Assembly: GCA_023144005.1 (NCBI GenBank) | Contig: JAGLGN010000006.1 | Coordinates: 148,440 to 212,439 of the forward strand | DNA: 64,000 nucleotides | Direction of reading: 5' to 3' | From: a bacterium | GTDB lineage: Bacteria > AUK180 | Part shown: positions 9,723 to 63,204 of the stretch, one piece after another | Layout: each line of letters starts with the position of its first letter | Numbering within the stretch: position 1 is the first letter of the stretch | Program-made: the position numbers and the translations under genes | The notes under the pieces: generated by a model | The model's database searches: none | The model's input: the letters and a program-made list of their open reading frames with translations, nothing else | What the model was told of the DNA's origin: nothing

Positions 9723-10400
9723 ATGGAATTTACAGGAGTCGTTTTCGATTTTTATGACACGCTATGCAGGGTTGACGAAAAGATATTCGTCTCCGGCAGA
9801 AGACAGGTCGCCGAAGCAGTAAATATACCATTTGAAACCTTTTATACTGCGTGGAAAAAGTTCGGAAGAAAGAATATCACCGGCGAATTGCTAACTACTC
9901 AGGATCGTATGGCTGCCGTTTTAAAATCACTTGAAGTAGAGGCAGATGAAAATTCGATTTCCGAATACACCGCGATCTGCGACAATGCCTTTTTAAGGGC
10001 AGCAGAGCCGTACCCTGAAACATTTGAGACAATAAGCTCTCTGAAAGAGAAGGGCATCCCTCTGCATATACTCTCCAATGCTTCGCAGAACGCGCAATTG
10101 ATCGCGCGGAAACTTGAGCCTTTATTGAAGCAATTTGACTCCGTGTATTTCTCCTATGCCCACGGACTGGCGAAACCGGACATAGGATTTTATAAATTAC
10201 TGATCAGGGAACAGAATATTGATCCCCGGAAGTTTCTTTATTGCGGTGACGGAAATGACCGCGAACTTGATATCGCCACATCGCTTGGATTTACTTCGGT
10301 CAAGGTCGACCATGAGGTGATGGCATCATACCGATTCGGAGAATCCACAGATTTTGAACATACGATACCTGATCTGAGAGGAATACTAGAATTTTTCTGA
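9723..10400 (+). CDS. HAD-superfamily hydrolase (subfamily IA-like)
   Basis: 225 aa with motif I FDFYDTL and C-terminal GDGNDRELD. Confidence 0.7.
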   Translation: MEFTGVVFDFYDTLCRVDEKIFVSGRRQVAEAVNIPFETFYTAWKKFGRKNITGELLTTQDRMAAVLKSLEVEADENSISEYTAICDNAFLRAAEPYPETFETISSLKEKGIPLHILSNASQNAQLIARKLEPLLKQFDSVYFSYAHGLAKPDIGFYKLLIREQNIDPRKFLYCGDGNDRELDIATSLGFTSVKVDHEVMASYRFGESTDFEHTIPDLRGILEFF

Positions 10401-10412
10401 ACAGTAAGAATC

Positions 10413-10466
10413 GGTGATAGGATGATAAGTTGATAGGGTTGTAGGTGGAGAGTAGGATAAGAGAAA
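10413..10466 (+). repeat. C-free tandem degenerate 9-mer array (TGATAGGNN-like), copy 1
   Basis: 54 nt with no C on the + strand: GGTGATAGG ATGATAAGT TGATAGGGT TGTAGGTGG AGAGTAGGA TAAGAGAAA. About 80% identical to the array at 30917-30962. Confidence 0.5.
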
Positions 10467-10518
10467 TTTACATAATCCGTCATCTTGAGTGAAACGAAAG
10501 ATCCATCCCTCTCGTTTC

Positions 10519-11421
10519 CTACAATCTCTGAAATCGCTCTGTAACAATCTGAATTAATTTCTCTTTATATTCGGGATTTAACTGAGAATCATCGATCTGA
10601 TCAATAATTAATTGTTTCTTTGCCGTCATATTGTTCATTACTTTTTCAGGAATACTAAATTTATCGGAAAAGGCGGCGAAATCGGTAAGCTGAATATTAT
10701 TTTTCTTGCCATTCAATGCCAGGGCCAGATCCTCTTCGCGCGGGATCACTAATTTTGATGAAACAATATCATATGCGGGAGATAATCGTATATTATTCAT
10801 GTCTGTATAGATTACTGAATAATTCTTCAAATGCGCGTCACCGTTTCCGATTATAAAAGAAAATAGGACTCTTTCAAAGAGGTATTGAATGTCCAGGGCC
10901 GGTATTTCCGAGATCTCATTCAGCTTATTGGCTATCTGCTCCACCGATCCCGTATATTTGTCCTTTTTGGATTTTCCTAGAATCTGACAGAAATCTTCCT
11001 GATTGATCTTTCTGTTATTTTCACGGTCGAATCTCTTTACAATATAGGCATAGGAATCATCCTTCAATTTCATTAAAGCATGGGAAGGAATATCTATTCC
11101 GAGAAGTTCGGCTATTGTCATACAGAGATTTTCATTTTCAGGGATCTGATCATAAACCCGGCTTTGCGGCTTTAAAATATATTCTCCACCTTCTGTAACG
11201 GACATTAATTTCTTTGATCTTTTGTTCAATTTCATTGAAAGTTTTGGTTGAACTCCCGAAATTGACAACTTACCCGCCATCTCCTGAGCTTTAATGGTTA
11301 TTTCACTTAAAGCCAGATCAATACCGGGGATATAACTGACTCCAAAGAGTCTATTTATGCAGGATTTGTGCATTGCCTGATCTGTATTGAGTGGTTTTCC
11401 GCATACCGGACATCTGTTCAT
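10519..11421 (-). CDS. hipT: HipT-like Ser/Thr kinase toxin (HipA kinase core without the N-terminal subdomain)
   Basis: Gly-rich loop LSISGVQPKLS is HipA/HipT-like. The catalytic region has GNGDAHLKN (HipA D..H.KN motif). Preferred start is MNRCPVCGK at 11421, an ATGA overlap with the upstream stop with GAGGAG 6 nt upstream. The first residues form a CxxC...HxxC mini-motif. Confidence 0.75.
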   Translation of the reverse strand: MNRCPVCGKPLNTDQAMHKSCINRLFGVSYIPGIDLALSEITIKAQEMAGKLSISGVQPKLSMKLNKRSKKLMSVTEGGEYILKPQSRVYDQIPENENLCMTIAELLGIDIPSHALMKLKDDSYAYIVKRFDRENNRKINQEDFCQILGKSKKDKYTGSVEQIANKLNEISEIPALDIQYLFERVLFSFIIGNGDAHLKNYSVIYTDMNNIRLSPAYDIVSSKLVIPREEDLALALNGKKNNIQLTDFAAFSDKFSIPEKVMNNMTAKKQLIIDQIDDSQLNPEYKEKLIQIVTERFQRL

Positions 11422-11741
11422 AGGAGCTCCTCTACCGATATGGAGCCAATGGTTTCCCGGCATGTTGAAAGGAGTATTCCAAAATCATCATCCTTGTCTA
11501 TTTTCAATGTAGAAGACACTACTTCAAGATACCAACCCTCCGGAAGCAGTCCCTGAAAGAAGGGGAATAATTCATCGTCCTCATAAGGCGCTTTCCTTAA
11601 CGGTAATGAAATTGAGATCGGCACATTTTCTTGAATGAATTCCTTTTCATATGTGAATTTATACCCACCTTCTGTCTCTTCCAAGATACCCGCTTTTTGT
11701 TCATTTGAGTAAATCACTGCTTTTCTAAAATCACTTCTCAT
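11418..11741 (-). CDS. hipS: HipS-like protein (stand-alone HipA N-terminal subdomain)
   Basis: Matches the HipA N-terminus: ISLPL and FFQGLLPEGW (E. coli HipA SLSLPL / FFDNLLPD). Start is uncertain: ATG at 11741, or TTG at 11756 overlapping hipB. Confidence 0.65.
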   Translation of the reverse strand: MRSDFRKAVIYSNEQKAGILEETEGGYKFTYEKEFIQENVPISISLPLRKAPYEDDELFPFFQGLLPEGWYLEVVSSTLKIDKDDDFGILLSTCRETIGSISVEELL

Positions 11742-11931
11742 CTTTGATAATCTCAATATGATGTCCGAAAAACCGCAGAACCTGATTCAGCTTATCAAGC
11801 CGTATAGTTGCTTTGTTATTTTCCAGCTCTCGGATAAATCTTAGGCCTACACCGGCTCTTTCCGACAATTCAACTTGCGTTAAATCATATTTCTTTCTTA
11901 GTTCTTTAATTCTTTTACCAATATTGTTCAT
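11731..11931 (-). CDS. hipB: XRE/Cro-type HTH regulator (HipB-like antitoxin/repressor)
   Basis: 66 aa with LTQVELSERAGVGLRFIRELENNK HTH. It is the first gene of the three-gene operon. Confidence 0.7.
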   Translation of the reverse strand: MNNIGKRIKELRKKYDLTQVELSERAGVGLRFIRELENNKATIRLDKLNQVLRFFGHHIEIIKDEK

Positions 11932-11948
11932 AATTACCTTTCCGCTAC

Positions 11949-12100
11949 ATTATAATCCCTTTAGGGTATAATGTCAAGAGGATTGCTTAATTATTTATAC
12001 CTCATCGGGTATAATATGGCTGATTTATCGAATTATTAATCCCTTTCGGGTATATATTCACACATACACCCCCAGATTTGCACCCTATCGGGTATAATAT
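11949..12100 (-). promoter_or_regulatory. hipBST promoter (TTGACA-17-TATAAT on the minus strand) with four dyad operator repeats
   Basis: Minus-strand -35 at 11972-11977 and -10 at 11949-11954. Four repeats of TATACCC-N4/5-GGG(A/T)T are centred near 11961, 12005, 12055 and 12089. The first lies in the promoter spacer. Confidence 0.5.
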
Positions 12101-12410: not shown

Positions 12411-12439
12411 TTGACAGCAGAAACAAAGTGATTTAGAAT
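12411..12439 (+). promoter_or_regulatory. Putative sigma70-type promoter for the 12468 gene
   Basis: TTGACA (12411-12416), 17-nt spacer, TAGAAT (12434-12439), about 28 nt before the ATG. Confidence 0.4.
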
Positions 12440-12467: not shown

Positions 12468-13742
12468 ATGAATATCGGTATTATTATTGGAAGGATTGGT
12501 GATGTTGATGGGGTTGCTCTAGAAACAGAAAAATGGATACAAGTTCTCAAAGGAATGGGGCATAGGATATTTATTATGTCGGGACGATATGCAAGACATA
12601 TCGTCGAACCGGAAGATGAAACACTTGTCCAGATGCTTTCTTTCTTTTCACCTGAATGTGAATGGGAACAAAAAAGAGCATTTTTTCTTCCGAGATTTGA
12701 AGATCTTGATGAGCTTCTTGATCAACTTGAATATTCCTCCAACAGAATTGCTGTTTATATTTTCAAATGGATCCTTACCAACAGGATAGACATACTGCTT
12801 TCTGAAAATGCCTCCACTCTGCCATGTCATCTTTCGATGGGAATGGGTATCAAAAAAGTTGTTAAAAATACAGGCCTCAGAATTGTGTGTCACGATCACG
12901 ATTTTCATTGGGAAAGGGGGGATAGATATAAATCACCGTTTAAAGAAATAAATGATCTTGTTAACGGTACCTTCCCGCTGCTTTCTCCAAATGCCTCCCA
13001 CGCGGTAATAAATACTTATTCAAAAAATACATTGAGGGAAAAATTTGACATCGATGCTACCCTGGTCCCCAATGTAATGGATTTCAATGAACCTTATGCC
13101 GAAATAGATGAATATAACAGGGATATGCTTGATAATATCGGACTGGGAAAGGGGGATATTCCAATTTTTCAAGCCACCAGAATAGTGAGACGAAAGGGAA
13201 TCGGAACGGCAATAGAACTTATTGAACGGATTCAGGACACTAAAGTGAAATTGATAATAACAGGGACTTATGCCGATGACGAGAGATATGGATATTACAA
13301 GGAACTAATGCAGCTTGTAAAAGATAAAAATCTTAATGGCCGTGTATTTTTTTCTCGCAACAGAATACTCAGTCATAGAACTCAGTCGCACACGGGGAAA
13401 AAAATATATTCCCTGTCAGATGCTTATGCTCATGCGATAGCCTGCACATATTTCAGCAAATATGAAGGATTTGGAAACGCATTTATCGAGGCGGTACTTG
13501 CGAAGCGCCCTGTTTTTGTAAACAATTATAAGCCTGTGTTCTGGCACGACATAGGTTCCAAGGGTTTTAAAACGGTTATGATCGAGGAAAATAATTTAAC
13601 AGATGCCGCTGTGGATGAAATCTTTAAAATAATACACAGTAAAAAATTAAGAGGGGAAATTGCCGAACATAATTACAAACTTGCTCAAAAGTACTTTTCT
13701 TATGATGTGCTGGAAGAAAAATTAGCAGAACTATTTTACTGA
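12468..13742 (+). CDS. GT-B-fold glycosyltransferase-like protein, paralogue of the N-terminal module of the 14038 gene
   Basis: 424 aa. The C-terminal half resembles a GT4-like Rossmann domain (RIVRRKGIGTAIELIE...). It shares CHDHDFHWERG with NNNHDFYWEGG in the 1390-aa protein. Confidence 0.5.
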   Translation: MNIGIIIGRIGDVDGVALETEKWIQVLKGMGHRIFIMSGRYARHIVEPEDETLVQMLSFFSPECEWEQKRAFFLPRFEDLDELLDQLEYSSNRIAVYIFKWILTNRIDILLSENASTLPCHLSMGMGIKKVVKNTGLRIVCHDHDFHWERGDRYKSPFKEINDLVNGTFPLLSPNASHAVINTYSKNTLREKFDIDATLVPNVMDFNEPYAEIDEYNRDMLDNIGLGKGDIPIFQATRIVRRKGIGTAIELIERIQDTKVKLIITGTYADDERYGYYKELMQLVKDKNLNGRVFFSRNRILSHRTQSHTGKKIYSLSDAYAHAIACTYFSKYEGFGNAFIEAVLAKRPVFVNNYKPVFWHDIGSKGFKTVMIEENNLTDAAVDEIFKIIHSKKLRGEIAEHNYKLAQKYFSYDVLEEKLAELFY

Positions 13743-13749
13743 ACAGGCT

Positions 13750-14022
13750 AGTGTACTGTTCCATAAATACCATAACAATGGCTGAAGCTATTTTGTTACG
13801 GATTCAAGGCGCGAGGAACATCGCATACCCACTGCGGTATGTAAGCGACGAGCAACGCAGAAGACAGGAAAAGAGCTTCAGCCCGAAGGGAATATCAGCT
13901 TTGGTCAATTTCTTTCTCTCTTTTCGTTTATGTACCACTAAGGGTACGCCGCACTCATCGTTCGTTGAGATTGACTCAAATCTAAGCATTCCATTGTTAT
14001 GGTATTTATGGAACCGTACACT
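13750..14022 (+). mobile_element. MITE-like non-coding element with 32-bp terminal inverted repeats, copy A
   Basis: TIRs AGTGTACTGTTCCATAAATACCATAACAATGG / CCATTGTTATGGTATTTATGGAACCGTACACT. The body is about 85% identical to copy B (43638-43910) and to the reverse-oriented copy C (62598-63042). No ORF is conserved beyond nucleotide identity. Confidence 0.6.
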
Positions 14023-14037
14023 TAGGGAGGTAAGTTT

Positions 14038-17000
14038 ATGAAAAGCGCAAAGGAAATGATGTTTTCTCTCAGGTCAGAAAAGATAGAAACATGGTTTGAT
14101 TTAGGACTCTATATAGACAGGATACGAGAAAGCAGAGATACACCGCAAACAGAAGGTTTTAATGATTTTGAGAGATTTACGGAGTTTGTTGCCGGGGGCA
14201 TTGCATTTATCACCTTCGATCTTTCAGTCGACGGTGTTTCCACTGAGATCGGGAAATATGCAAAATCCTTCAGGAAAATTATTAAAGATGTACCGGTGCA
14301 TTTTATCCTCGGTAAACTCAGCAATAGGGTAGGAAAAGATATTATAGACCCGTCCTATAAAATATTCGAGGTTCCTGAAATTGTTGGATTCAGTAAATGG
14401 AAACATTATAATGATTTTTTTCACACAGACCTTGAACGGGGGAGTGAGTCTTATAATAGTCTGATTTTGAATTTCTGGGATGAGGTTTTGAGTATAACAG
14501 AGAAATTGGGAAAGTATATTGAAGAAAATGATATAAGATTACTATTTTTAATCAATGCTTGTTCAAATCCCGGAAATGTATCCCTCGCGCTTGCAATGGT
14601 ATTTATTTCCGAGTTTATGGGTCTACCCGTCATAAACAATAATCATGACTTCTATTGGGAGGGGGGCAACAGCAGAATCGATATTGCAACTCAAAATCTA
14701 AACCCCGGACCAAGAGACCATTTTTTCCATAATTCACATATTGGGGAATTTTTTTCCCTGATTGAAGTTCTTTATACCTGGGAATCCCGTTCATGGCTGC
14801 AGATCAATATTAATAATTTTCAATCCCAACAACTTATTGAAAGGTACGGTCATAATCCAGCAAATATAACGGAGATAGGAACGGCAATAGATTTTAAATA
14901 TTATAGCGGCATAGAAAACGGAAGGATACTGGATATATATAAACAATTATTTGATATTTTTAGGAGTAAAAAGAAATATATCAATCCTCTTACTGCCAAA
15001 GAAGTAATTTCAAGAGAATTAATGTCAAAGGAAAATCCATTGCCCGTTTTCATAGGCAGGCGTAGGACCCTGTCATTAAAGGAAATAATTAATGATAATT
15101 TTATTTTTGTCCAACCGACCAGAATAGTAGCACGGAAAAAAATAGAGGTCAATTTTATTTTAATAAAGAAATTATTTGAAAACAAAGAATTTTCAAGATG
15201 CTTTGACAATAATCGACAGTTGAAATTAACTCTTTTAATAACCGGACCAATTGCGGGGGGGCATACCGAATATGCCGAAAGGCTTACTTGTTTGTTTTCC
15301 GAAATGCTGTCTAAAATGGATTCCCGTTATCGAAATAGAATATTTCTAGGATTTATTTTCAGTGAATTTGATCATCCTAATTTCAAAGGTCGATATGAAA
15401 AACCGATTTCAATACCGGAACTGTACAATATTGCATCACTTGTTCTGCTACCAAGTGAAACAGAAGGCCGTGGTCTGCCCATTATTGAGTCATCTGCCTG
15501 CGGGACACCTATTTTTGTTCGCAGGTATTACCCTGAGCATGTGTATTCCGCAGTGATTGGAGAACACCTTTCAATAGAAGAGCGTTTGAAAGTAATCGAG
15601 TTTAATAATGATAATATAGGAACGGAAATTATCGACAAGGTTGCAGATCATGTACTTCATCCCCAGGATTATATGATAGAAGCAGCTGAAAATAAACAAG
15701 TGGTCCGGAACAGATATACGCTCAACTCAATGAAAAACGATATCAGGAATGCGTTATATAAATTATTTCTTCAACTTTGTGATAATTCAGATAGCATGGG
15801 GCTTGCAATCTGGGCTTTAGAACAACATAACCATATTACCGAAAAAGATAATCTGGACTTGGAGAAAATACTGGATACCAATAATCGCCAATATTTGCCC
15901 GGATATGGGAAGATGCGGTTTATGATATTTCTCAAGTCGTTAATAGACCCAAGCTATTTCCGAGTAGAAGAACAGCGGTTCAAAGGGATGGCAATGAAAT
16001 TCGCAAGCAATCTTGTTCAATACAATCCAGACCCCACACCTCTTTCCCAGGAAAAAAAACACAAATTCTTTAACGCTGTGAATGATATATTTCTGTATAG
16101 AAAAGGTGATGTCCCCATAAGAATTGACCATTCCTTTAATTATAGACATCGAAACAAAAAGCATTATCCGTACAGGGACCTTACCTTTCAGGAGCTCACG
16201 GGGGTAATAACCATACTTTTTAATAAAATCGCATCTCCGCCCCCATATATAGAATTCAGGAATGAAGTCAGGCATTTAATTAATTTTAATCAGGCGATCC
16301 TTCAACTCACGAACAGCTCCGAACTTGCTATAGATCATAGAAAAAGATTAAAAGGAAGACTTGAAGAGAATGTCCCGGTAGCATTATTCCCCGGGAATTA
16401 TATAAATTACGAAATGGAGTTTTTTGTTCTTCAACCTATCCGTAAGCGGCTTGGGTTGATGGCGGAAGAGGAACTTACCGCTCAAATTCTTGAGTTAGCT
16501 GAAGATCTCGCTCCGATATACGTAATAAAACATAATGTCCCTATTGGACTTTCGATAACTGCCGATGCGTTAAAAAGCTATATTTCAAGTTCTGATAATT
16601 CAGAGATGAAACTTCTATTCGAATACGGGGTATGTAAAATAATTAAGAGTAATCAGGTAACGGTGGGAGTCCATTTTGAACAGCTTGGAAAGGAAGCTTT
16701 AAGAGCTTTAAGAGATGTAAAAGAGGGAAGTGGCTTTATTATCGCGAGTGGAGACCATTCCGCAATGATGACCGATCTTGTAAATATCGAAACATTTCAT
16801 ATTGGAAGAGCAACAAAAATATTAGCTTCAAAGATAATGGGGATCCCGGTTGGAAGCGGCTATCTTAATTGGGTGCCCGCCGGTCTGAGAAGTTGTCTTT
16901 CTTACCCCACTCCGGTGCAGACTTCTAGGGATTTCAGCGCGGCGCTGAAGAGCTCTGTTTTCAAAAGACTCTCTAAGAAATACGGTGAAGAGAAGATACT

Positions 17001-18210
17001 TGAAATTCTTAAGAAAGATGCCTCAACAAAGGGTTCCCCTGTAATGGATGTTTTAAACTCTCTTGTTTCGGATAAAGTATCAAATAAAGGTATTTCAACA
17101 TCTCAAATCATGGGGATTTACAAGGACGGTCTGCCTTGGGCAGGTGCGATGGCAAGGGTTGCGATAAAGGACAGCCGAAGACAATGGAATTTTAGTATTC
17201 AGGCCCGCGAGAACAATGAGACCATAACGGTACCGGAATTTTGCCGGGATTTTTATAAGAAGACCGGAAAGAAGCCTAATATTGCATGGAACGGCGGTTA
17301 TATACTGAATTCCGAGCTTGTCGGCAAACTTGGCATTTCGGCATCGTATATTGGTTCCTCACTCGGTCTAGTTATAACAGAGAAAAAGATAGTATCTCCG
17401 CCACTCTTCAATAAACCCGCATTTGGTATCTTTTCCAACGGCACATTGAAAATTGAGCGGGTAAATTGTTCTGAAGGAATTACCATTGTTGATACGAACA
17501 AGGAGATCGTTATTACAAAAGATCATTACAACATCTCCGATCCTGAAGACAAACCCTGTTTCTATGACCTTATGTATCCAGATGAATATATCAATGGCAA
17601 CGGCCATGTAATTTTCCGTTTTTCCCGAAATGTTATCAAAGAAATAATTCATACAAAAAAGGGAGAAAAAATTAAACTGTTGCCAGTGGGTCTCACCTTC
17701 TCATTTCCAAAACGATTAGTACCCGAGAGCTGGGATAGAATCGAAAAAGAGGCTATTTTCAAACTTCACTTCTGGAATGATGTTAAACACGCGCTTGAAG
17801 CCGGACCCATGCTTGTAGAGAACGGTAGGGTTTGTATAGATATGGAGTTGGAGGGATGGAAAACCACGAATTCCATTAGTACACAAGCCAGCAGACTTGA
17901 TTATCTTGATATGCGTGGCCCTAAAATAGCGGTTGGACTTGATATAGACGGAAATCTTATTGTCTTAACAGTAAATGGCAGAATAAGGGAATCGGTAGGC
18001 GCGACACATATAGATATGGCGGAAATTCTTTTATCAAAGGGAATAGTGACAGGTATGGGGTTTGACCCGGGCGGCAGCAGTACACTTGTAGTACATAATA
18101 AGATCCTGAATATTTCTCCGTATAATCATAAATATGAGAACGATATATATACCCTTCCACCGGAACCCAGAGCGGTATCAAATGTGGTGATCGGTTATTC
18201 AAGTAAGTAA
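14038..18210 (+). CDS. Large multidomain protein: GT-B glycosyltransferase-like N-terminal module + central unknown region + C-terminal phosphodiester glycosidase (NAGPA-like) domain
   Basis: 1390 aa with AGGGAGG RBS. The N-terminal 600 aa are paralogous to the 12468 gene. The C-terminus (AWNGGYILNS...LVENGRV...GATHIDMAEILLSKGIVTGMGFDPGGSSTLVV) is typical of the phosphodiester glycosidase family. Confidence 0.65.
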   Translation: MKSAKEMMFSLRSEKIETWFDLGLYIDRIRESRDTPQTEGFNDFERFTEFVAGGIAFITFDLSVDGVSTEIGKYAKSFRKIIKDVPVHFILGKLSNRVGKDIIDPSYKIFEVPEIVGFSKWKHYNDFFHTDLERGSESYNSLILNFWDEVLSITEKLGKYIEENDIRLLFLINACSNPGNVSLALAMVFISEFMGLPVINNNHDFYWEGGNSRIDIATQNLNPGPRDHFFHNSHIGEFFSLIEVLYTWESRSWLQININNFQSQQLIERYGHNPANITEIGTAIDFKYYSGIENGRILDIYKQLFDIFRSKKKYINPLTAKEVISRELMSKENPLPVFIGRRRTLSLKEIINDNFIFVQPTRIVARKKIEVNFILIKKLFENKEFSRCFDNNRQLKLTLLITGPIAGGHTEYAERLTCLFSEMLSKMDSRYRNRIFLGFIFSEFDHPNFKGRYEKPISIPELYNIASLVLLPSETEGRGLPIIESSACGTPIFVRRYYPEHVYSAVIGEHLSIEERLKVIEFNNDNIGTEIIDKVADHVLHPQDYMIEAAENKQVVRNRYTLNSMKNDIRNALYKLFLQLCDNSDSMGLAIWALEQHNHITEKDNLDLEKILDTNNRQYLPGYGKMRFMIFLKSLIDPSYFRVEEQRFKGMAMKFASNLVQYNPDPTPLSQEKKHKFFNAVNDIFLYRKGDVPIRIDHSFNYRHRNKKHYPYRDLTFQELTGVITILFNKIASPPPYIEFRNEVRHLINFNQAILQLTNSSELAIDHRKRLKGRLEENVPVALFPGNYINYEMEFFVLQPIRKRLGLMAEEELTAQILELAEDLAPIYVIKHNVPIGLSITADALKSYISSSDNSEMKLLFEYGVCKIIKSNQVTVGVHFEQLGKEALRALRDVKEGSGFIIASGDHSAMMTDLVNIETFHIGRATKILASKIMGIPVGSGYLNWVPAGLRSCLSYPTPVQTSRDFSAALKSSVFKRLSKKYGEEKILEILKKDASTKGSPVMDVLNSLVSDKVSNKGISTSQIMGIYKDGLPWAGAMARVAIKDSRRQWNFSIQARENNETITVPEFCRDFYKKTGKKPNIAWNGGYILNSELVGKLGISASYIGSSLGLVITEKKIVSPPLFNKPAFGIFSNGTLKIERVNCSEGITIVDTNKEIVITKDHYNISDPEDKPCFYDLMYPDEYINGNGHVIFRFSRNVIKEIIHTKKGEKIKLLPVGLTFSFPKRLVPESWDRIEKEAIFKLHFWNDVKHALEAGPMLVENGRVCIDMELEGWKTTNSISTQASRLDYLDMRGPKIAVGLDIDGNLIVLTVNGRIRESVGATHIDMAEILLSKGIVTGMGFDPGGSSTLVVHNKILNISPYNHKYENDIYTLPPEPRAVSNVVIGYSSK

Positions 18211-18291: not shown

Positions 18292-19791
18292 ATGACCGAC
18301 AAAGTTGTCCTTATGCTGAGTTTCGGTGGATATCTTACATTTATTCTCATTATCGGGATCATTGCATCCAAGTTCAATAAAACACTTTCTGATTTTTTAC
18401 TAGGCGGCAGAAAGCTCGGACCGTGGCTGCTCTCCATCTCCGAAAGGGCATCAGGAGAGAGCGCCTGGCTGATCGTCGGGTTTACGGGAACGGCTTTCGC
18501 CATGGGTCTGAAGGCGATCTGGATCGCGCTCGGATGCGCGCTCGGGATCATATTCAATTGGCTCTTCATCGCTAAAAAACTCAGAGAGGCGGGAGGGAAA
18601 TACGATTCCCTTACGATTCCCGATTATTTAGCGGAGCGCTACGGGGATAAGAGGCACATTCTACGCATCACATCTGCGGTAATGATCCTGATCTTCTATG
18701 TTCTTTATGTGTCAGGACAGTTCATGGGTACTCAGAAGATACTTGAGGTGGCATTTAACATACCGCCGACCACCGGAATACTTATAGGTGCGGCGATCAT
18801 TATCTTTTATACCGCGCTGGGCGGATTTATGGCGGTGGTATGGACTGATTTCTTTCAGGGACTTATTATGCTTGCAGCACTCGTTCTGCTCCCGATCCTC
18901 GGACTGATCAAACTGGGGGGATTCGGCGCCGCGATCGAGATGATCCGGGCGGCAAGAGGGCCCGAAGCGGCAGGGCTCTTTTATTCCGGCAATTTCTGGC
19001 AATCTGTAGCTCTTGTGATATCCGGCCTCGGATGGGGACTCGGATATATGGGACAGCCGCATCTTCTGGTGAGATTTATGGCATTTGATGATACAAAGAA
19101 CATAAAAAAGGGAGCCACGATTGCGATCATATGGACCGTGCTCGCATATACCGGTGCGGTGATAATAGGGATAATCGGACTGGCGGCGCTGAAAGGAAGT
19201 CTTGAGAACGGAACGCTTTTCGGGGCGGTGATCACGGACAAGGAACATGTGATGCCAATGCTTGCATTGAAACTTGTGCCGGCGTTCCTAGCGGGGATAT
19301 TCATTTCCGGCGCGATTGCCGCTATGATGTCTACCGCCGACTCCCAGTTGCTCGTATGTACCTCAACGGTCACCGAGGATTATCTGATCAAGGTGAAAAA
19401 GAAAGACCTCAGCAATAAGCAAATGGTCAGGATCAGCAGAATAGTGACCGTAGTGCTTGGCGTCATTGCTCTTGTGTTCGGTATGCTGGGAAGCAAGGTC
19501 TTTGACCAGGTACTGCACGCGTGGGCCGGGCTGGGCGCGACCATAGGCGTAACAATGCTTCTGTCCATTTACTGGAAAAGGTCAAATCTGAACGGAGCTC
19601 TCTGGGGTATGATCACCGGATTTTCCGTTGTCGTGATATGGAACGCGATAAAAATACTGACTCATCTTGAGGGTGTACCGAAATTCTTTGTTTACAGCTT
19701 TGACAATGAGATAGTGCCTGCGTTCATACTTGCGGTTGCCGTCCATATGATAGTTTCGATAGCAACAAAAAAAACAGAGGTTAGAGGGTAG
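18292..19791 (+). CDS. Sodium:solute symporter family (SSS, PutP-like) transporter
   Basis: 499 aa, multi-TM, N-terminal LGGRKLGPWLLSISERASGESAWLIVGFTG typical of SSF. Confidence 0.85.
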   Translation: MTDKVVLMLSFGGYLTFILIIGIIASKFNKTLSDFLLGGRKLGPWLLSISERASGESAWLIVGFTGTAFAMGLKAIWIALGCALGIIFNWLFIAKKLREAGGKYDSLTIPDYLAERYGDKRHILRITSAVMILIFYVLYVSGQFMGTQKILEVAFNIPPTTGILIGAAIIIFYTALGGFMAVVWTDFFQGLIMLAALVLLPILGLIKLGGFGAAIEMIRAARGPEAAGLFYSGNFWQSVALVISGLGWGLGYMGQPHLLVRFMAFDDTKNIKKGATIAIIWTVLAYTGAVIIGIIGLAALKGSLENGTLFGAVITDKEHVMPMLALKLVPAFLAGIFISGAIAAMMSTADSQLLVCTSTVTEDYLIKVKKKDLSNKQMVRISRIVTVVLGVIALVFGMLGSKVFDQVLHAWAGLGATIGVTMLLSIYWKRSNLNGALWGMITGFSVVVIWNAIKILTHLEGVPKFFVYSFDNEIVPAFILAVAVHMIVSIATKKTEVRG

Positions 19792-20276: not shown

Positions 20277-20287
20277 ATAACCCTAAT

Positions 20288-20360
20288 GGGGATGTAGCTC
20301 AGTTGGGAGAGCGATGCGTTCGCAACGCATAGGTCGTCGGTTCAAATCCGGTCATCTCCA
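20288..20360 (+). tRNA. tRNA-Ala (anticodon CGC)
   Basis: Cloverleaf GGGGATG/CATCTCC acceptor with G3:U70, D-arm GCTCAGTTGGGAGAGC, anticodon loop TTCGCAA, T-loop TTCAAAT. CCA is not encoded. Confidence 0.9.
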
Positions 20361-20922
20361 TTTTTTCCTTTATCATTTATCTCAAAACTAGTGATCTGAT
20401 TCATAAAACAATAAAAGCAGTCTGAAATGTGAAGTGTGAAGTGGTGAAAAGACGGGATGAAATAAAACTGGATCCCACGGTCGCCAACTCCCTCTGGATG
20501 ACACTTTCCACTTCTTTATTTCCTTCCCGCATCCGCTCAACGGGAGCCCGGCAGCGCCGGGCGACCAACCCAAAAGAGTTTTGAACCATTTAAGCGACAT
20601 TGACATTTTTAACGGCAAGAATGAATGGTGGCGAAGCCGAAAATATCCAATTGTCTGAGTGAGCGAAAGCTAACGAGTTTTGGGATTTTAATGAGTGATA
20701 GCCGTGGTGAGTATCGTTGCAAAAAATGACGTGAGAGCAAAAACGGATCAAAACTCAATTAAATAATCTTTATTCAATTGTCAATTTTACATTGACAATT
20801 CAAAGATGATATTCCCTTCGGGTAGATACTCTTTTTATGTCTTCTGCTTTCCTGCGGCTCTCATGCTGAACAAAATAGCATCAGCCATTGTCAATGGATT
20901 TATGAATTAGCTCACTAATAAA

Positions 20923-59887: not shown

Positions 59888-62029
59888 ATGAACAAGGAGC
59901 TTGGGAAGCCATCCGAGGTATTTAACGAAGATAAGGTAAAAAAGATCCTTATCGACACCATTCAGAATATGAGGGGAATAGTCCTTACAAAAAGCGATAA
60001 TGAACAGATCGCAATGGCGGTGCAGTTCCTTTTAAAATTCCTCGGCCCCAAACACCGTATGGACTATCATCCCGCAGCGCTTCACTCGATCAGAGTGGCT
60101 ATTAAATGCGTTACTTACTACAAGATATACGACAAAGAGATGATAATGGCGGCGCTTTTGCATGATGTCGTGGAGGATTCCAAGGTCTCTATTGACGAGG
60201 TCAGAAAGAAGTTCGGCTACAATGTCGCTTATCTGGTGGACGGCCTTACAAAATATAAATTCGCCGAAGAAGATGTCTCAAAGATGGTAAAAGAAGCGAC
60301 TTCCCTGATCAAGCTGATCCTTTTTGCGCAGAAAGATATCAGGATCATCCTAATTAAATTCATGGACCGGATAGACAATATCGAGACCATCAGAGCGACG
60401 CCGAATATACAGAAAATCGTAAAAACAAAAGAAACCTTCGACATATACATCCCCATCGCGGACGCCTTGAATATGTGGAAAGTGAAGATGTACCTGGAGA
60501 ACCTCGCTTTCAAGATCCAATACGGTGAATTCGCCCATCTGGTTTACGAGGAATTCTACAATTTCAAGAGCGAGAAATTCAAAGGGACCAATTCGGAAGC
60601 GTATATCAAGGGAAATATCATTAAGAAGATCGCGAGGGAATTAAAAAAGAGAAAGATAAAGATCATGAATCTCAAGTACCGCGAGAAGAGCCTTTACGGC
60701 ATACATAAAAAAATGCAGAAGGTCGCCACCTCCATCGATCTGATCTATGATCTTTTCGGGATCAAGGTCATTGTCGACAGAGAGATCGAATGTTATCAGG
60801 CGCTGGAAGCTATACAGAAGATATTTCCGACATTCATCCGAGTGAAGGATTACATTAAGAATCCGAAGAATAACGGATATAAATCAATTCATCTGGACAT
60901 TCAGGATCCTAAATTGAAGATATGGATAGAATTGCAGATCAAAACAGATGAAATGGAGGCTTATAATGAATACGGGCCTGCGGCACACCCCCTTTACAAG
61001 GGGTGGGAATTTCATTCCTATCAATTCCAGGACATCGGAAAGGTGTATGAGATGCTTGAGAATGTTCTGAAATCCAGAAGATTGAATCCCGAGGTCCTTG
61101 ATATCAATATCCTCACTCCCGCCGGTGACAAGATTACCCTTCCTTACGGCTCAACCGTTCTTGACCTCGCATACCGTATTCACTCCGACATCGGATATCA
61201 TTGCAAACAGGCCAAGATCAACAGGGTCAATATTCTCGGCGAATTGATCGTTTCCCCTGAAGAAATACTGCATGACGGTGACCGGATCGAGATCATAGTG
61301 GATCCGGAAACACATCCCGCGATCGACTGGCTCTTACATGTAAGAACACATGATGCCTTTAAATCAATTAAGAACTGGCTGTATCATTATTATAACTCCG
61401 AAGAAATCGGGAATGCGTTGTCGCGGTCCATTGCCGATCTCGAGAAAAAAGGGAGAAATTCTCCAATATACTCCGTTGTTAAAGGCATTTACAAAGATAT
61501 TTATCCCGCTGACCTGAAGAAGATCAAAAAGGATCCCGTAAAAACAAAGCTCCCTTTAACGGCCATGTATAAGGTTGTAGTGCCAAAGACCGGTGAAGAG
61601 ATCGTTGATTTCAAATTGGCGCTTTGCTGCAGCCCGCTTCAGGGAGAGCCGATAGTCGGGATCAGATCCAAGGACGGAATGGTAATACACAAAGAGAACT
61701 GCCTTACCGCTGGTGCAAAAGCGATACCGATCAGATGGGCCACCGACCATAATGCAAAGAAATGGAAGACAAAGATCTATTTCTCTTTAGAGCAGAAAAC
61801 AGACCGCAGGAAGGCACAGAAGAAATTAGAAAAGATCTTAAAGATGGCGCTAAGCGGATATGAGGGGTATTATGAAAATCTCGAGATCCAATTTTCATCC
61901 GTGGACGAACAAAAGACCTCTTCGGGGTATATTTTCATTGATGTGAATACTTCCAGGGTCACAAGAAAAATAAAGGAGGCTTTCCTGGATGATAAAAGCA
62001 TCTCCGGAGTTCTTCCGAACTGCTGGTAA
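59888..62029 (+). CDS. Bifunctional (p)ppGpp synthetase/hydrolase (RelA/SpoT homologue)
   Basis: Start at MNKELGK, with AGGGA 8 nt upstream. Contains an HD hydrolase domain (LLHDVVED), a synthetase domain (YKSIHLDI), then TGS and ACT-like C-terminal domains. Confidence 0.9.
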   Translation: MNKELGKPSEVFNEDKVKKILIDTIQNMRGIVLTKSDNEQIAMAVQFLLKFLGPKHRMDYHPAALHSIRVAIKCVTYYKIYDKEMIMAALLHDVVEDSKVSIDEVRKKFGYNVAYLVDGLTKYKFAEEDVSKMVKEATSLIKLILFAQKDIRIILIKFMDRIDNIETIRATPNIQKIVKTKETFDIYIPIADALNMWKVKMYLENLAFKIQYGEFAHLVYEEFYNFKSEKFKGTNSEAYIKGNIIKKIARELKKRKIKIMNLKYREKSLYGIHKKMQKVATSIDLIYDLFGIKVIVDREIECYQALEAIQKIFPTFIRVKDYIKNPKNNGYKSIHLDIQDPKLKIWIELQIKTDEMEAYNEYGPAAHPLYKGWEFHSYQFQDIGKVYEMLENVLKSRRLNPEVLDINILTPAGDKITLPYGSTVLDLAYRIHSDIGYHCKQAKINRVNILGELIVSPEEILHDGDRIEIIVDPETHPAIDWLLHVRTHDAFKSIKNWLYHYYNSEEIGNALSRSIADLEKKGRNSPIYSVVKGIYKDIYPADLKKIKKDPVKTKLPLTAMYKVVVPKTGEEIVDFKLALCCSPLQGEPIVGIRSKDGMVIHKENCLTAGAKAIPIRWATDHNAKKWKTKIYFSLEQKTDRRKAQKKLEKILKMALSGYEGYYENLEIQFSSVDEQKTSSGYIFIDVNTSRVTRKIKEAFLDDKSISGVLPNCW

Positions 62030-63204
62030 CGGCTCGCTGATTTTCCTTGATACTCCTTTCGTATCTGCCTTTACAACAAGGTTAAATGGTGTTTCTTCGG
62101 GCAATTTCTCATCTTTCAATCTATACTTCGGTAGAGGGGATAAACTGGAAGATGTTGAGCGTAACTGGGAGATTTTGCGCGAATATCTTGATTTTAACGG
62201 CAAGATCGTCTTGCCGCAGCAAATACACTCATCTACGATAAAATATGTTCCTGAAAATCTCGAACAAGGCGGTATCAACCATATTCCTCAATGTGATGGA
62301 TTGATAACGGACAAAAAAGGGGTCCTCACAGGAGTAATGTTCGCCGATTGCCTTCCGGTGCTTATCTGGGGTACGAGATATGCCGCTATTCTGCATGCCG
62401 GATGGCGGGGACTCGCGTCCGGGATCATTGGAAATGGGGTACGCGAACTTATCTCCAAGGGAGAAAACCCATCAGAACTCAATGCGGCCTTGGGACCGTG
62501 TATAGCCGCGGAAGATTATGAAGTAGGTCAAGAAGTTGTCCGTGCCTTCACCGACGCCGGGCTTGAAAATGCCGTTGAACGGTCAGGCAGCAGCTATAGT
62601 GTACTATTCCATATATACCATATCAATGGAATGTTTAGATTTGAGTCAATTCCAACGAACAATAAGCGCAGCGTACCCTTTGTGGTCCGTAAGCGAAGAG
62701 AGAGGAAGAAATTGACCAAAGATGATATTCCCTTCGAGCTGAAGCTCTTTTTCTGTCTTCTGCGTTGCAAGTGCTCTGATTTAAAATCCGCTGACAATGG
62801 AATGTTTAGATTTGAGGCAATTCCAACGAATAATGAGCACGGCGTACCCTTGGTGGTCCGTGAGCGAAGAATGAGGAAGAAATTGACCAAAGATAAGATT
62901 CCCTCTGGGCTGAATCTCTTTTGCCGTCTTCTACGTTCCTCGTCCCTTACATACCGCCTGCGGGTATGCAGCGCTCCTCGCTCCTTGAATACGACACAAA
63001 ATAGTTTCAGCCATTGTTGTGGTATTTATGGAACAGCACACTCGAGCATCTCTTGTCAAAGGTGCTGTCTTTCAATTGATCGAATTCAAAGTTGCCAATA
63101 TCTATTTTGAAAGGTATAATACATACGGACAGAGTGAGAAATTTTTCTCTTACCGAAGGGACGGAGCGAAGGTAGGAGAGATGCTGATGTTTTTTATCCT
63201 ATAG
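61989..63204 (+). pseudogene. pgeF: pgeF/yfiH (DUF152 purine nucleoside phosphorylase / peptidoglycan editing factor) interrupted by a 445-bp element
   Basis: The 5' part (61989-62597) aligns to YfiH up to ...AFTDAGLENAVERSGSSY (ADCLPV, HAGWRGL). The 3' part (63043-63204) encodes RASLVKGAVFQLIEFKVANIYFERYNTYGQSEKFFSYRRDGAKVGEMLMFFIL, matching the YfiH C-terminus (ETFFSYRRD). Removing 62598-63042 joins the two in frame. Confidence 0.7.
62598..63042 (-). mobile_element. MITE-like element copy C (composite, 445 bp, reverse orientation) inserted in pgeF
   Basis: Outer TIRs AGTGTACTATTCCATATATACCATATCAATGG / CCATTGTTGTGGTATTTATGGAACAGCACACT. An internal partial body is followed by a second B-type start-TIR (AGTGCTCTGATTTAAAATCCGCTGACAATGG) near 62775, then a complete body. 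Confidence 0.65.

What the first reader, a model, noticed from the sequence alone, without database searches (positions are those of the whole stretch)
12468..18210. Paralogous pair of atypical GT-B-like genes. The second is a 1390-aa fusion ending in a phosphodiester-glycosidase (NAGPA-like) domain, and the pair is separated by a MITE.
The 424-aa protein and the first 600 aa of the 1390-aa protein share an unusual HDF(H/Y)WE(R/G)G block plus a GT4-like C-terminal Rossmann region. The giant protein then has about 450 aa of unassigned sequence followed by an uncovering-enzyme-type phosphodiester glycosidase domain. A glycosyl (or glycosyl-phosphate) transferase physically fused to a phosphodiester glycosidase suggests a two-step add-then-uncover sugar-phosphate modification, analogous to the eukaryotic GlcNAc-1-P transferase / NAGPA logic. 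I do not know a characterised bacterial example. No signal peptide is seen.
Basis: partly seen in the sequence, partly recalled or inferred. Interest (0 to 1): 0.6.

Follow-up and report, generated by a model that had tools for sequence, protein, structure and literature searches.

The report
Conserved two-gene sugar-transferase cassette, three-module giant
Two neighbouring genes form a horizontally spread, uncharacterised cytoplasmic sugar-transferase cassette: the 1390-residue protein joins a working-looking glycosyltransferase to a phosphatase-derived domain that has lost its catalytic aspartate and to a domain like the "uncovering" phosphodiester glycosidase, and a small mobile element recently landed between the genes.

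Summary
ORFs 12468-13742 (424 aa) and 14038-18210 (1390 aa) are distant, colinear paralogues over the GT-B region (25% identity, E 3e-8 and 3e-6). Both keep the HDFxWE block and the GT4 EX7E motif. A 273-bp element with 32-nt terminal inverted repeats separates them and is absent from a 97%-identical relative, so the insertion is recent.

The 1390-aa architecture has a fixed length, is about 50% identical across at least ten phyla including DPANN archaea, and occurs in 367 species-level genomes; the 80 best matches listed are nearly all MAGs. It usually sits next to the small GT, which is MggS-like. A Cloacimonetes contig carries the two GTs alone.

Best reading: a cytoplasmic soluble-glycoside (compatible-solute-type) synthesis cassette with a sugar-phosphate-handling accessory half.

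The parts
12411..12439 (+). Sigma-70-like promoter candidate (TTGACA-17-TAGAAT, 11 of 12 matches), 29 nt upstream of the small GT start codon
   Evidence: Consensus scan only. Function is not shown.
12468..13742 (+). Small GT, 424 aa: a retaining GT4-type GT-B glycosyltransferase and a distant homologue of mannosylglucosylglycerate synthase (MggS). It carries H141-x-HDFHWER and the EX7E motif (E333...E341).
   Evidence: Orthologues are 60-98% identical across many phyla, with 97 invariant positions among 41 sequences.
13750..14022 (.). MITE-like non-autonomous element of 273 bp with 32-nt terminal inverted repeats (13750-13781 and 13991-14022). It inserted into the small-to-big intergenic spacer.
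   Evidence: It is absent from the 97%-identical L005. As RNA it folds end to end (-105 kcal/mol, z -6.5).
14025..14030 (+). Shine-Dalgarno-like GGGAGG, 7 nt upstream of the ATG of the large gene and just outside the element
   Evidence: Read directly from the sequence.
14038..15777 (+). Large protein, module 1 (aa 1-580): retaining GT4-type GT-B glycosyltransferase, paralogous to the small GT. It carries H203-D-F-Y-W-E208, Q359-P-T-R362...K367 and the EX7E motif E476...E484.
   Evidence: AF2 pLDDT 86. Foldseek against HepE, SPS, MshA, GlgM and BshA gives E about 1e-13. A stand-alone 584-aa version exists in L087.
15835..17082 (+). Large protein, module 2 (aa about 600-1015): DUF89/ARMT1-derived domain (helical subdomain plus Rossmann-like sheet). 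The Asp nucleophile position is G786. Conserved: D697, D913 in all 146; R617, R703, R705 in 144-145; H698 in 141.
17092..18210 (+). Large protein, module 3 (aa about 1019-1390): NAGPA/DUF2233-type phosphodiester-glycosidase fold. It carries N1085-G-G, R1293, R1315, R1317, S1319, D1343-P-G-G-S1347 and R1378.

Best explanation
The two genes are one horizontally transferred cytoplasmic operon. It encodes two paralogous Leloir-type retaining glycosyltransferases of the MggS-like branch of GT4. I infer that they act in sequence on a small soluble acceptor to build a glycoside of the compatible-solute type, comparable to glucosylglycerate or mannosylglucosylglycerate. The large protein carries a separable C-terminal half with two domains. 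One is a DUF89-derived domain that can no longer form the aspartyl-phosphate intermediate but keeps a fully conserved charged pocket, so it most likely binds a phospho-ligand or carries out different chemistry. The other is a NAGPA-type domain that keeps the Asp, the glycine-rich loop and the Arg required to cleave a glycosyl-C1-O-phosphate bond. I infer that this half binds and cleaves a sugar-1-phosphate-type linkage, which would give the synthase a processing, turnover or regulatory activity. Shown: domain identities, residue conservation, gene pairing, cytoplasmic location, mobility, and the recent MITE insertion. Inferred: the substrate class, the order of the reactions, and the role of the C-terminal half.
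For: Both GT modules have an intact fold and intact motifs: EX7E is conserved in 145-146 of 146 sequences, and R362/K367 are conserved. The only named relative of both is MggS, NF041101, a soluble compatible-solute enzyme (PMC3736172). The nearest structures are GT4 enzymes that act on small phosphorylated or acidic acceptors: SPS, MshA, GlgM and BshA. There is no signal peptide or membrane-spanning segment. The small GT lies directly upstream or within a few kb in 56 of 82 loci across phyla, and no other neighbour is conserved across phyla. A cassette with the two GTs only exists in Cloacimonetes. Some members have a degenerate NAGPA motif but an intact GT, which identifies the GTs as the core. 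The family is about 50% identical between Bacteroidota, Anaerolineales, KSB1, Calditrichota, Planctomycetota and DPANN archaea. In the window the cassette has GC3 of 0.33-0.36 against 0.46-0.57 in the flanking genes, consistent with horizontal transfer of a self-sufficient module. In the NAGPA domain, D1343 is present in 142 of 146 sequences, G1345, G1346 and S1347 in 142-144, and R1378 in 141; these match the residues whose mutation abolishes human NAGPA activity (PMC13474241). A PutP-like Na+/proline symporter lies directly downstream in this lineage, which is a weak hint of osmoadaptation.
Against: No substrate or product is known for any member. MggS homology is far below the equivalog cut-off (219 and 33 bits against 640). 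No gene for an acceptor pathway (gpgS, a glycerate-related gene or a dedicated phosphatase) is conserved next to the cassette. Roughly 8-9 loci with full flanks lack the small GT nearby. The model does not explain why a solute synthase would carry an 800-residue C-terminal half conserved at about 50% identity. The NAGPA loop has Pro where human G287 uses its backbone NH to read the N-acetyl group, so the sugar specificity, and even whether the domain is catalytic, are uncertain. The marine-sediment bias rests only on MAG names.
Confidence: 0.4

Rival explanations
1. Add-then-uncover. The GT module attaches a sugar-1-phosphate, or a sugar onto a phosphate, on a cytoplasmic target. The NAGPA-like domain then removes the sugar and leaves a phosphate mark, as in the eukaryotic GlcNAc-1-P transferase / NAGPA pathway.
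For: The NAGPA fold and its key residues are retained. The physical fusion is conserved at constant length in 146 or more sequences. A phosphatase-derived domain sits between the two modules and could bind the phosphorylated intermediate.
Against: The GT module is an EX7E GT4 Leloir enzyme and not a Stealth or GlcNAc-1-P-transferase type. The GT pair functions without the C-terminal half in L087. Some members have lost the NAGPA motif. G287 is replaced by Pro, which removes the contact that reads GlcNAc.
Confidence: 0.15
2. Glycosyl-phosphate relay, with GlgM/GlgE-like logic. The GT module glycosylates a sugar-1-phosphate to make a disaccharide-1-phosphate. The NAGPA-like domain uses its retaining, SNi-like chemistry to cleave the C1-O-P bond and pass the glycosyl unit to water or to an acceptor, building or trimming a cytoplasmic oligo- or polysaccharide. 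The DUF89-derived pocket holds the phosphate.
For: GlgM (maltose-1-phosphate synthase) is among the top structural neighbours. NAGPA cleaves the glycosidic C-O bond with phosphate as the leaving group and retains configuration. The NAGPA-like domain has extra invariant Arg residues, R1293, R1315 and R1317. The middle domain has a conserved Arg/His/Asp pocket.
Against: This reading is purely inferential. No glucan-pathway genes are linked to the cassette. Glycogen synthases score below the small-molecule GT4 enzymes in the fold search.
Confidence: 0.15
3. Cytoplasmic steps of cell-envelope or exopolysaccharide biosynthesis, which is the usual annotation ('glycosyltransferase involved in cell wall biosynthesis').
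For: GT4 enzymes are common in envelope glycan pathways. HepE and WaaG are structural neighbours. JGI uses this name for several homologues.
Against: No flippase, polymerase, priming transferase or other polysaccharide gene is conserved next to the cassette in any phylum. The cassette is a self-contained two-gene unit and is also present in DPANN archaea.
Confidence: 0.1
4. A conflict or defence system built around a GT4 of the 'GT4-conflict' type.
For: There is a weak PF20706 hit (E 0.067). In the window the cassette lies beside a HipA island, and in L001 it lies beside CRISPR-Cas and YafQ genes. Its composition suggests horizontal transfer.
Against: Neither protein hits PADLOC. No copies were found in viral contigs. 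In Bacteroidales the gene sits in stable housekeeping synteny with pheS, ruvB, nadA, rpiB and a hemW-like gene. The HipA island is a separate recent insertion that L005 lacks.
Confidence: 0.05

Closest known systems
Mannosylglucosylglycerate synthase MggS (Petrotoga mobilis / Thermotoga; NCBIfam NF041101)
   Same: It is the best-scoring named family for both GT modules. The small GT aligns end to end (residues 1-421 against model positions 1-429 of 431). Both are soluble Leloir retaining GT4-type enzymes that act on a small glycoside acceptor.
   Different: The scores of 219 and 33 bits are far below the 640-bit equivalog cut-off. No gpgS, ggS or mggB partner genes are linked. The large paralogue has a ~50-residue N-terminal extension, a ~130-residue longer GT region, and an 800-residue C-terminal half that is unknown in MggS.
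Two-step compatible-solute systems that pair a GT with a phosphatase (sucrose-phosphate synthase/phosphatase, OtsA/OtsB, MpgS/MpgP, MggA/MggB)
   Same: A retaining GT-B synthase is physically or genetically coupled to a phosphatase-fold domain. SPS is among the top structural neighbours of the GT module.
   Different: Here the phosphatase fold is DUF89, not HAD, and its Asp nucleophile is replaced by Gly in 134 of 146 members. The canonical dephosphorylation step is therefore not expected.
DUF89 / ARMT1-like damage-control phosphatases (PH1575, At2g17340, YMR027W, S. pombe Duf89)
   Different: The DN(x)GE nucleophile motif is F-P-G-x here. DUF89 is not known fused between a GT and a NAGPA domain. 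This version of the middle domain occurs only in this architecture.
NAGPA, the mannose-6-phosphate uncovering enzyme, and bacterial DUF2233 proteins (3ohg, 5h3k Slr0280, 6ozd BPSS2145)
   Different: The domain is cytoplasmic, with no signal peptide or membrane anchor. The loop reads DPGGS where the reported invariant motif is DGGGS. The E226/T227 GlcNAc-reading positions are not evidently conserved. No partner GlcNAc-1-P transferase is present.

Membership tests
GT4-type retaining GT-B glycosyltransferase (Pfam PF00534 Glycos_transf_1) | Pfam model matched above the gathering score | tested here: met
   Small GT 41 bits and large protein 30.4 bits, against a 26.4-bit cut-off.
GT4-type retaining GT-B glycosyltransferase (Pfam PF00534 Glycos_transf_1) | Two-Rossmann GT-B fold | tested here: met
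   The AF2 model of residues 1-620 has pLDDT 86. Foldseek against HepE, SPS, MshA, GlgM and BshA gives E about 1e-13 with target TM-scores of 0.55-0.74. The small GT was not modelled.
GT4-type retaining GT-B glycosyltransferase (Pfam PF00534 Glycos_transf_1) | EX7E motif in the C-terminal domain | tested here: met
   Large protein: E476 in 146 of 146 sequences and E484 in 145 of 146. Small GT: E333...E341 are conserved in at least 90% of 41 orthologues.
Mannosylglucosylglycerate synthase (NF041101 equivalog) | Whole-protein score at or above the curated 640-bit cut-off | tested here: not met
   219 bits for the small GT and 33 bits for the large protein. Both are homologues, not equivalogs.
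Mannosylglucosylglycerate synthase (NF041101 equivalog) | GDP-mannose:glucosylglycerate mannosyltransferase activity | not testable with these tools
   Requires an enzyme assay.
DUF89 / ARMT1-like metal-dependent phosphatase (PF01937) | DUF89 fold | tested here: met
DUF89 / ARMT1-like metal-dependent phosphatase (PF01937) | Pfam model matched by the window protein | tested here: not met
   The window protein has no hit, even at E up to 10. Only 3 of 20 divergent family members hit PF01937, the best at 3.3e-10.
DUF89 / ARMT1-like metal-dependent phosphatase (PF01937) | Asp nucleophile followed by the metal-binding Asn (the D-N of DNxGE), which is essential for activity (PMC9062747) | tested here: not met
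   The HMM alignment to PH1575 places the D-N on G786-N787. Position 786 is Gly in 134 of 146 sequences and Asp in 3. This rests on a sequence-profile alignment, because a structure superposition could not be inspected.
Phosphodiester glycosidase NAGPA/DUF2233 (PF09992) | Pfam model above the gathering score, and the fold | tested here: met
Phosphodiester glycosidase NAGPA/DUF2233 (PF09992) | Invariant DGGGS loop (PMC13474241) | tested here: inconclusive
   The loop is D1343-P1344-G-G-S1347. Asp is present in 142 of 146 sequences, Pro in 142, and G, G and S in 142-144. The second position is Pro, not Gly, and Pro lacks the backbone NH that human G287 uses to bind the sugar.
Phosphodiester glycosidase NAGPA/DUF2233 (PF09992) | Phosphate-binding Arg (human R316) | tested here: inconclusive
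   R1378 is present in 141 of 146 sequences and aligns with the Arg of guinea-pig 'PRRVS'. Its equivalence to human R316 is inferred from position only.
Phosphodiester glycosidase NAGPA/DUF2233 (PF09992) | Secretory or exported location (signal peptide or membrane anchor) | tested here: not met
   There is no signal-like N-terminus. The only hydrophobic peak (residues 181-199) lies in the N-terminal Rossmann half of the GT-B fold.
GlcNAc-1-phosphotransferase / Stealth-type sugar-phosphate transferase (needed for the 'add-then-uncover' analogy) | Presence of a Stealth or phosphotransferase domain in the cassette | tested here: not met
   Neither protein hits such a model in Pfam or NCBIfam.
MITE (non-autonomous DNA transposon) | Short length, terminal inverted repeats, no transposase, several copies, and an empty site in a relative | tested here: met
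   The element is 273 bp with 32-nt repeats. It is too short to encode a transposase; the only ORF across it is a mechanical 96-aa GTG ORF at 13751-14041. A related copy lies at 62598-63042. L005 has the empty site.
MITE (non-autonomous DNA transposon) | Target-site duplication and an identifiable parent transposon | tested here: inconclusive
   The flanks read ...ggcT|AGTGTAC...GTACACT|Tagg. A TA or T duplication is possible, but the empty site has diverged. The parent IS element was not searched for.

The most novel reading that the evidence does not exclude
The large protein is the founding member of an unrecognised family of cytoplasmic three-module enzymes: an MggS-like GT4, a DUF89-derived phospho-ligand module and a NAGPA-like module that cleaves glycosyl-phosphate bonds. 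Together with its small GT partner it would make a so far undescribed glycoside or glycosyl-phosphodiester solute or oligosaccharide in anoxic-sediment bacteria and DPANN archaea. That would give the first defined role for a prokaryotic phosphodiester glycosidase domain and an example of a DUF89 fold repurposed after losing its nucleophile.
Probability: 0.3. Interest if true: 0.7.

Novelty: new variant of a known kind. Interest (0 to 1): 0.55.

Why it matters
All three domain kinds are known, but this fixed combination is not described in any paper I could find. Databases label it only "phosphodiester glycosidase family protein" or "hypothetical". It is nevertheless conserved at about 50% identity over 1390 residues, from Bacteroidales to DPANN archaea, in 367 species-level genomes. 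Nearly all of the 80 best-matching records are labelled MAGs. This points to a selected, transferable metabolic capability of anoxic-sediment microbes whose product is unknown. Bacterial NAGPA/DUF2233 domains and prokaryotic DUF89 domains both lack defined physiological roles. This family offers a tractable two-gene system in which to find one, with natural controls already available: a lineage with the GTs only, and lineages with a decayed NAGPA motif.

Tried and rejected
1. Neighbourhood analysis for a functional hint. ORFs from 84 loci were clustered and the neighbours were run against Pfam. Apart from the small GT, only lineage-specific synteny appeared: a hemW-like gene, rpiB, nadA and ruvB in Bacteroidales; a LacI regulator in Anaerolineales; and LysR, a creatininase-family protein and DinB elsewhere.

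2. A search for the middle domain in other architectures. It occurs only in this roughly 1390-aa layout. Shorter hits look like fragments; P0123, for example, is a truncated gene on a 3-kb contig.

3. Defence-system membership. There are no PADLOC hits.

4. Viral carriage. None was found.

5. Direct Pfam or PDB sequence detection of DUF89 with the window protein alone failed. Detection needed a family profile and the fold searches.

6. A search for the MITE repeat in the 88 fetched loci found no copies, so the element family could not be traced beyond this genome. The parent transposon was not looked for.

7. A structure-based check of the DUF89 and NAGPA active sites was not possible, because model coordinates cannot be inspected. 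The residue mapping therefore rests on HMM alignments.

8. The HAD hydrolase upstream (9723-10400) was considered as the missing phosphatase. Its linkage holds only in this lineage (L005) and its family assignment is generic.
Full report
**1. What is in the sequence**

The window carries ORFs at 12468-13742 (+, 424 aa) and 14038-18210 (+, 1390 aa).

The two proteins are distant paralogues. BLASTP aligns them in two colinear segments:
- Small 13-152 against big 64-211: 25% identity, E 3e-8. This segment ends in HDFHWE/HDFYWE.
- Small 235-409 against big 359-560: 25% identity, E 3e-6.

Both pass the Pfam Glycos_transf_1 gathering score. For both, the best NCBIfam model is NF041101, mannosylglucosylglycerate synthase (MggS). 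The small protein matches it end to end at 219 bits and the large one at 33 bits, against a cut-off of 640. They are therefore homologues of MggS, not equivalogs.

Residues 1237-1383 of the large protein match PF09992 NAGPA at 60.8 bits, and they match solved NAGPA chains by sequence.

Neither protein has a signal-like N-terminus or a membrane-spanning segment. The one hydrophobic peak (residues 181-199) lies in the N-terminal Rossmann half of the GT-B fold.

**2. The intergenic element**

Positions 13750-14022 form a 273-bp element with 32-nt terminal inverted repeats that are 97% complementary.
- The repeat sequence occurs four times in the window, against 0 expected in 100 shuffles.
- The second locus, 62598-63042, is a composite of related copies.
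- Contig L005 (JAGLWT010000145) is colinear with the window at 96-97% identity. It has 4 bp where the window has 13752-14030, so the small-GT stop and the large-gene start are about 20 nt apart there.
- The gap is also short in a 71% relative (27 nt, L001) and in a Planctomycetota contig (30 nt, L085).

The two genes were therefore a tight operon, and the MITE insertion is recent. As RNA the element folds into one end-to-end hairpin (-105 kcal/mol, z -6.5). It contains no promoter-like or terminator-like site. The GGGAGG ribosome-binding site of the large gene lies just outside it. Whether it affects expression is unknown.

**3. The "unassigned" 450 residues**

AlphaFold2 models were built on 45-sequence alignments, covering residues 580-1390 (pLDDT 83) and 1-620 (pLDDT 86).

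The C-terminal model matches two unrelated folds:

Sequence evidence agrees. A profile of the middle region hits PH1575 (2g8l) at E 2.4e-6. Three of 20 divergent family members hit PF01937 on their own, the best at 3.3e-10.

DUF89 enzymes work through an aspartyl-phosphate intermediate on the Asp of a D-N motif, and mutating that Asp abolishes activity (PMC9062747). The profile alignment places that D-N on G786-N787. Position 786 is Gly in 134 of 146 family members and Asp in 3. One divergent member, P0172, still reads CDGAGEIVFD.

The domain is therefore DUF89-derived but has lost the canonical nucleophile. It is not decaying, however:
- D697 and D913 are present in 146 of 146 sequences.
- R617, R703 and R705 are present in 144-145.
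- H698 is present in 141.
- D697 sits in a low-confidence flexible loop (model residues 117-123), which recalls the DUF89 lid aspartate.

I read this as a conserved phospho-ligand pocket, or as different chemistry. This is an inference.

This middle domain occurs in no other architecture. Among 1.84 billion representative proteins it gave only 110 hits. The full-length hits (about 1380-1560 aa) carry it at about residues 600-1060, and the shorter hits look like gene fragments.

**4. The catalytic modules**

*GT module (aa 1-580).* It is a GT-B fold whose closest structures are HepE, sucrose-phosphate synthases, MshA, GlgM and BshA (E about 1e-13). These are all retaining GT4 enzymes, and several act on small phosphorylated or acidic acceptors. 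EX7E (E476/E484), R362/K367 and H203-D-F-x-W-E are essentially invariant. The small GT keeps the same three signatures in its orthologues.

*NAGPA-like module.* According to PMC13474241, human NAGPA depends on D286 within an invariant DGGGS loop and on R316. E226, T227 and the backbone NH of G287 read the GlcNAc N-acetyl group. Here:
- The loop is D1343-P-G-G-S1347. Asp is present in 142 of 146 sequences, Pro in 142, and G, G and S in 142-144.
- R1378, present in 141 of 146, aligns with the Arg of NAGPA's 'PRRVS'.

The residues needed to cleave a glycosyl-phosphate bond are thus present. Pro at the G287 position, however, removes one contact that reads the sugar. The sugar is therefore probably not GlcNAc, and activity itself remains unproven.

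**5. Distribution and context**

The full-length architecture is widespread:
- The word-indexed search returned 799 proteins.
- The genome scan found relatives in 367 species-level genomes.
- Length is nearly constant at 1377-1476 aa among the 120 best hits.
- Identity to the window protein is 46-53% for most matches in other phyla. These include Bacteroidales (the majority), Anaerolineales, KSB1, Calditrichota, Gemmatimonadota, Deferribacteres, Fermentibacteria, Thermodesulfobacteriota, Planctomycetota, and Woesearchaeota and Nanobdellati archaea.
- The nearest relatives (97%) are labelled "bacterium RS_12_30" and "Candidatus Atribacteria".
- Nearly all of the 80 best-matching records listed are labelled MAGs.

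In 56 of 82 loci an orthologue of the small GT (50-98% identical) lies close to the large gene:
- Outside Bacteroidales it is usually directly upstream on the same strand.
- In most Bacteroidales loci it is 1-5 kb downstream on the opposite strand.
- It is duplicated in tandem in KSB1 and Caldithrix.

No other neighbour is conserved across phyla.

Several observations point to the two GTs as the functional core, with the DUF89-derived and NAGPA-like half as a separable addition:
- A Cloacimonetes contig (L087) has the small GT followed by a stand-alone 584-aa copy of the GT module. That copy is 46% identical and stops at the module boundary. An unrelated selA gene starts 126 nt later, and there is no remnant of the C-terminal half.
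- Several divergent members have an intact GT but a degenerate NAGPA motif.

In the window the cassette has GC3 of 0.33-0.36, against 0.46-0.57 for the flanking glyS, PPDK, HAD and putP-like genes. It sits in different contexts in different relatives. Both points fit horizontal transfer. There are no PADLOC hits and no viral copies.

**6. Interpretation**

The best-supported reading (confidence about 0.4) is a self-contained cytoplasmic operon of two MggS-like retaining glycosyltransferases. They would build a small soluble glycoside of the compatible-solute type. The large enzyme carries an accessory half that binds, and probably cleaves, a glycosyl-phosphate-type linkage for processing, turnover or regulation.

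- *Shown:* the domain identities, motif conservation, gene pairing, modularity, mobility and cytoplasmic location.
- *Inferred:* the substrate class and the role of the C-terminal half.

The rivals are:
It is weakened because the transferase is a Leloir GT4 and not a sugar-phosphate transferase, and because the C-terminal half is dispensable in some lineages.
- A GlgM/GlgE-like glycosyl-phosphate relay.
- Envelope polysaccharide synthesis, for which no pathway genes are linked.
- A defence role, for which there is no support.

**7. Novelty**

I found no paper describing this fusion. It is a new, fixed combination of known domain kinds, with a repurposed DUF89 fold and an atypical cytoplasmic NAGPA-type domain. 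I classify it as a new variant of a known kind, of moderate to good interest. The product and the chemistry remain to be found experimentally.

Noticed in passing
window 10405-12082: This 1678-bp segment is absent from the 97%-identical contig L005, which has 156 bp in its place. It carries a HipA-family toxin split into two overlapping minus-strand ORFs: the HipA N-terminal domain at 11418-11756 and HipA_C at 10519-11463. A perfect sigma-70 consensus (TTGACA-17-TATAAT) lies on the minus strand at 11977-11949. GC is 0.375. It looks like a recently inserted toxin-antitoxin islet next to the cassette.
   Followed up: partly
window 62598-63042: A second, composite copy (about one and a half units) of the same MITE family, with terminal repeats differing by 2-3 mismatches. 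It lies inside the mechanical ORF 61989-63110.
   Followed up: partly
L087 4189-7292 (ENA ERZ23498665 scaffold_1119, Cloacimonetes-labelled): A natural unfused variant. The small GT orthologue is followed by a stand-alone 584-aa GT module, 46% identical to residues 7-580 of the large protein, with no DUF89-like or NAGPA-like part.
   Followed up: yes
L017 6485-9233 (KSB1) and L032 380-2981 (Caldithrix): Two tandem copies of the small GT gene (about 59-63% identical to the window protein) lie upstream of the large gene.
   Followed up: no
L015 4399-9957 (Nanobdellati archaeon) and L040 (Woesearchaeota): DPANN archaeal MAG contigs carry the full 1380-aa protein at 51-52% identity to this bacterial copy. 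In L015 a canonical 386-aa GT4 (Glyco_transf_4 plus Glycos_transf_1) sits upstream in place of the MggS-like small GT.
   Followed up: partly
proteins P0124, P0135, P0172, P0213 (family members found): These divergent members have lost the DPGGS and NGG motifs of the NAGPA-like domain but keep the GT EX7E motif. P0172 alone keeps a near-canonical DUF89 motif, CDGAGEIVFD. P0205 and P0219 (about 1560 aa) show the opposite pattern: a canonical DGGGS loop and no EX7E.
   Followed up: partly
window 12468-18210 compared with its flanks: The cassette has GC 0.38 and GC3 0.33-0.36. The flanking glyS, PPDK, HAD and putP-like genes have GC3 0.46-0.57. This suggests horizontal acquisition.
   Followed up: yes
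window 18292-19791 and 20287-20361: A PutP-like Na+/proline symporter (420 bits against a 515-bit cut-off) lies directly downstream of the cassette, and is also there in L005 and L016. It is followed by tRNA-Ala(CGC).
   Followed up: partly
window 13751-14041: A mechanical 96-aa GTG ORF runs the whole length of the MITE. It is almost certainly not a gene.
   Followed up: no
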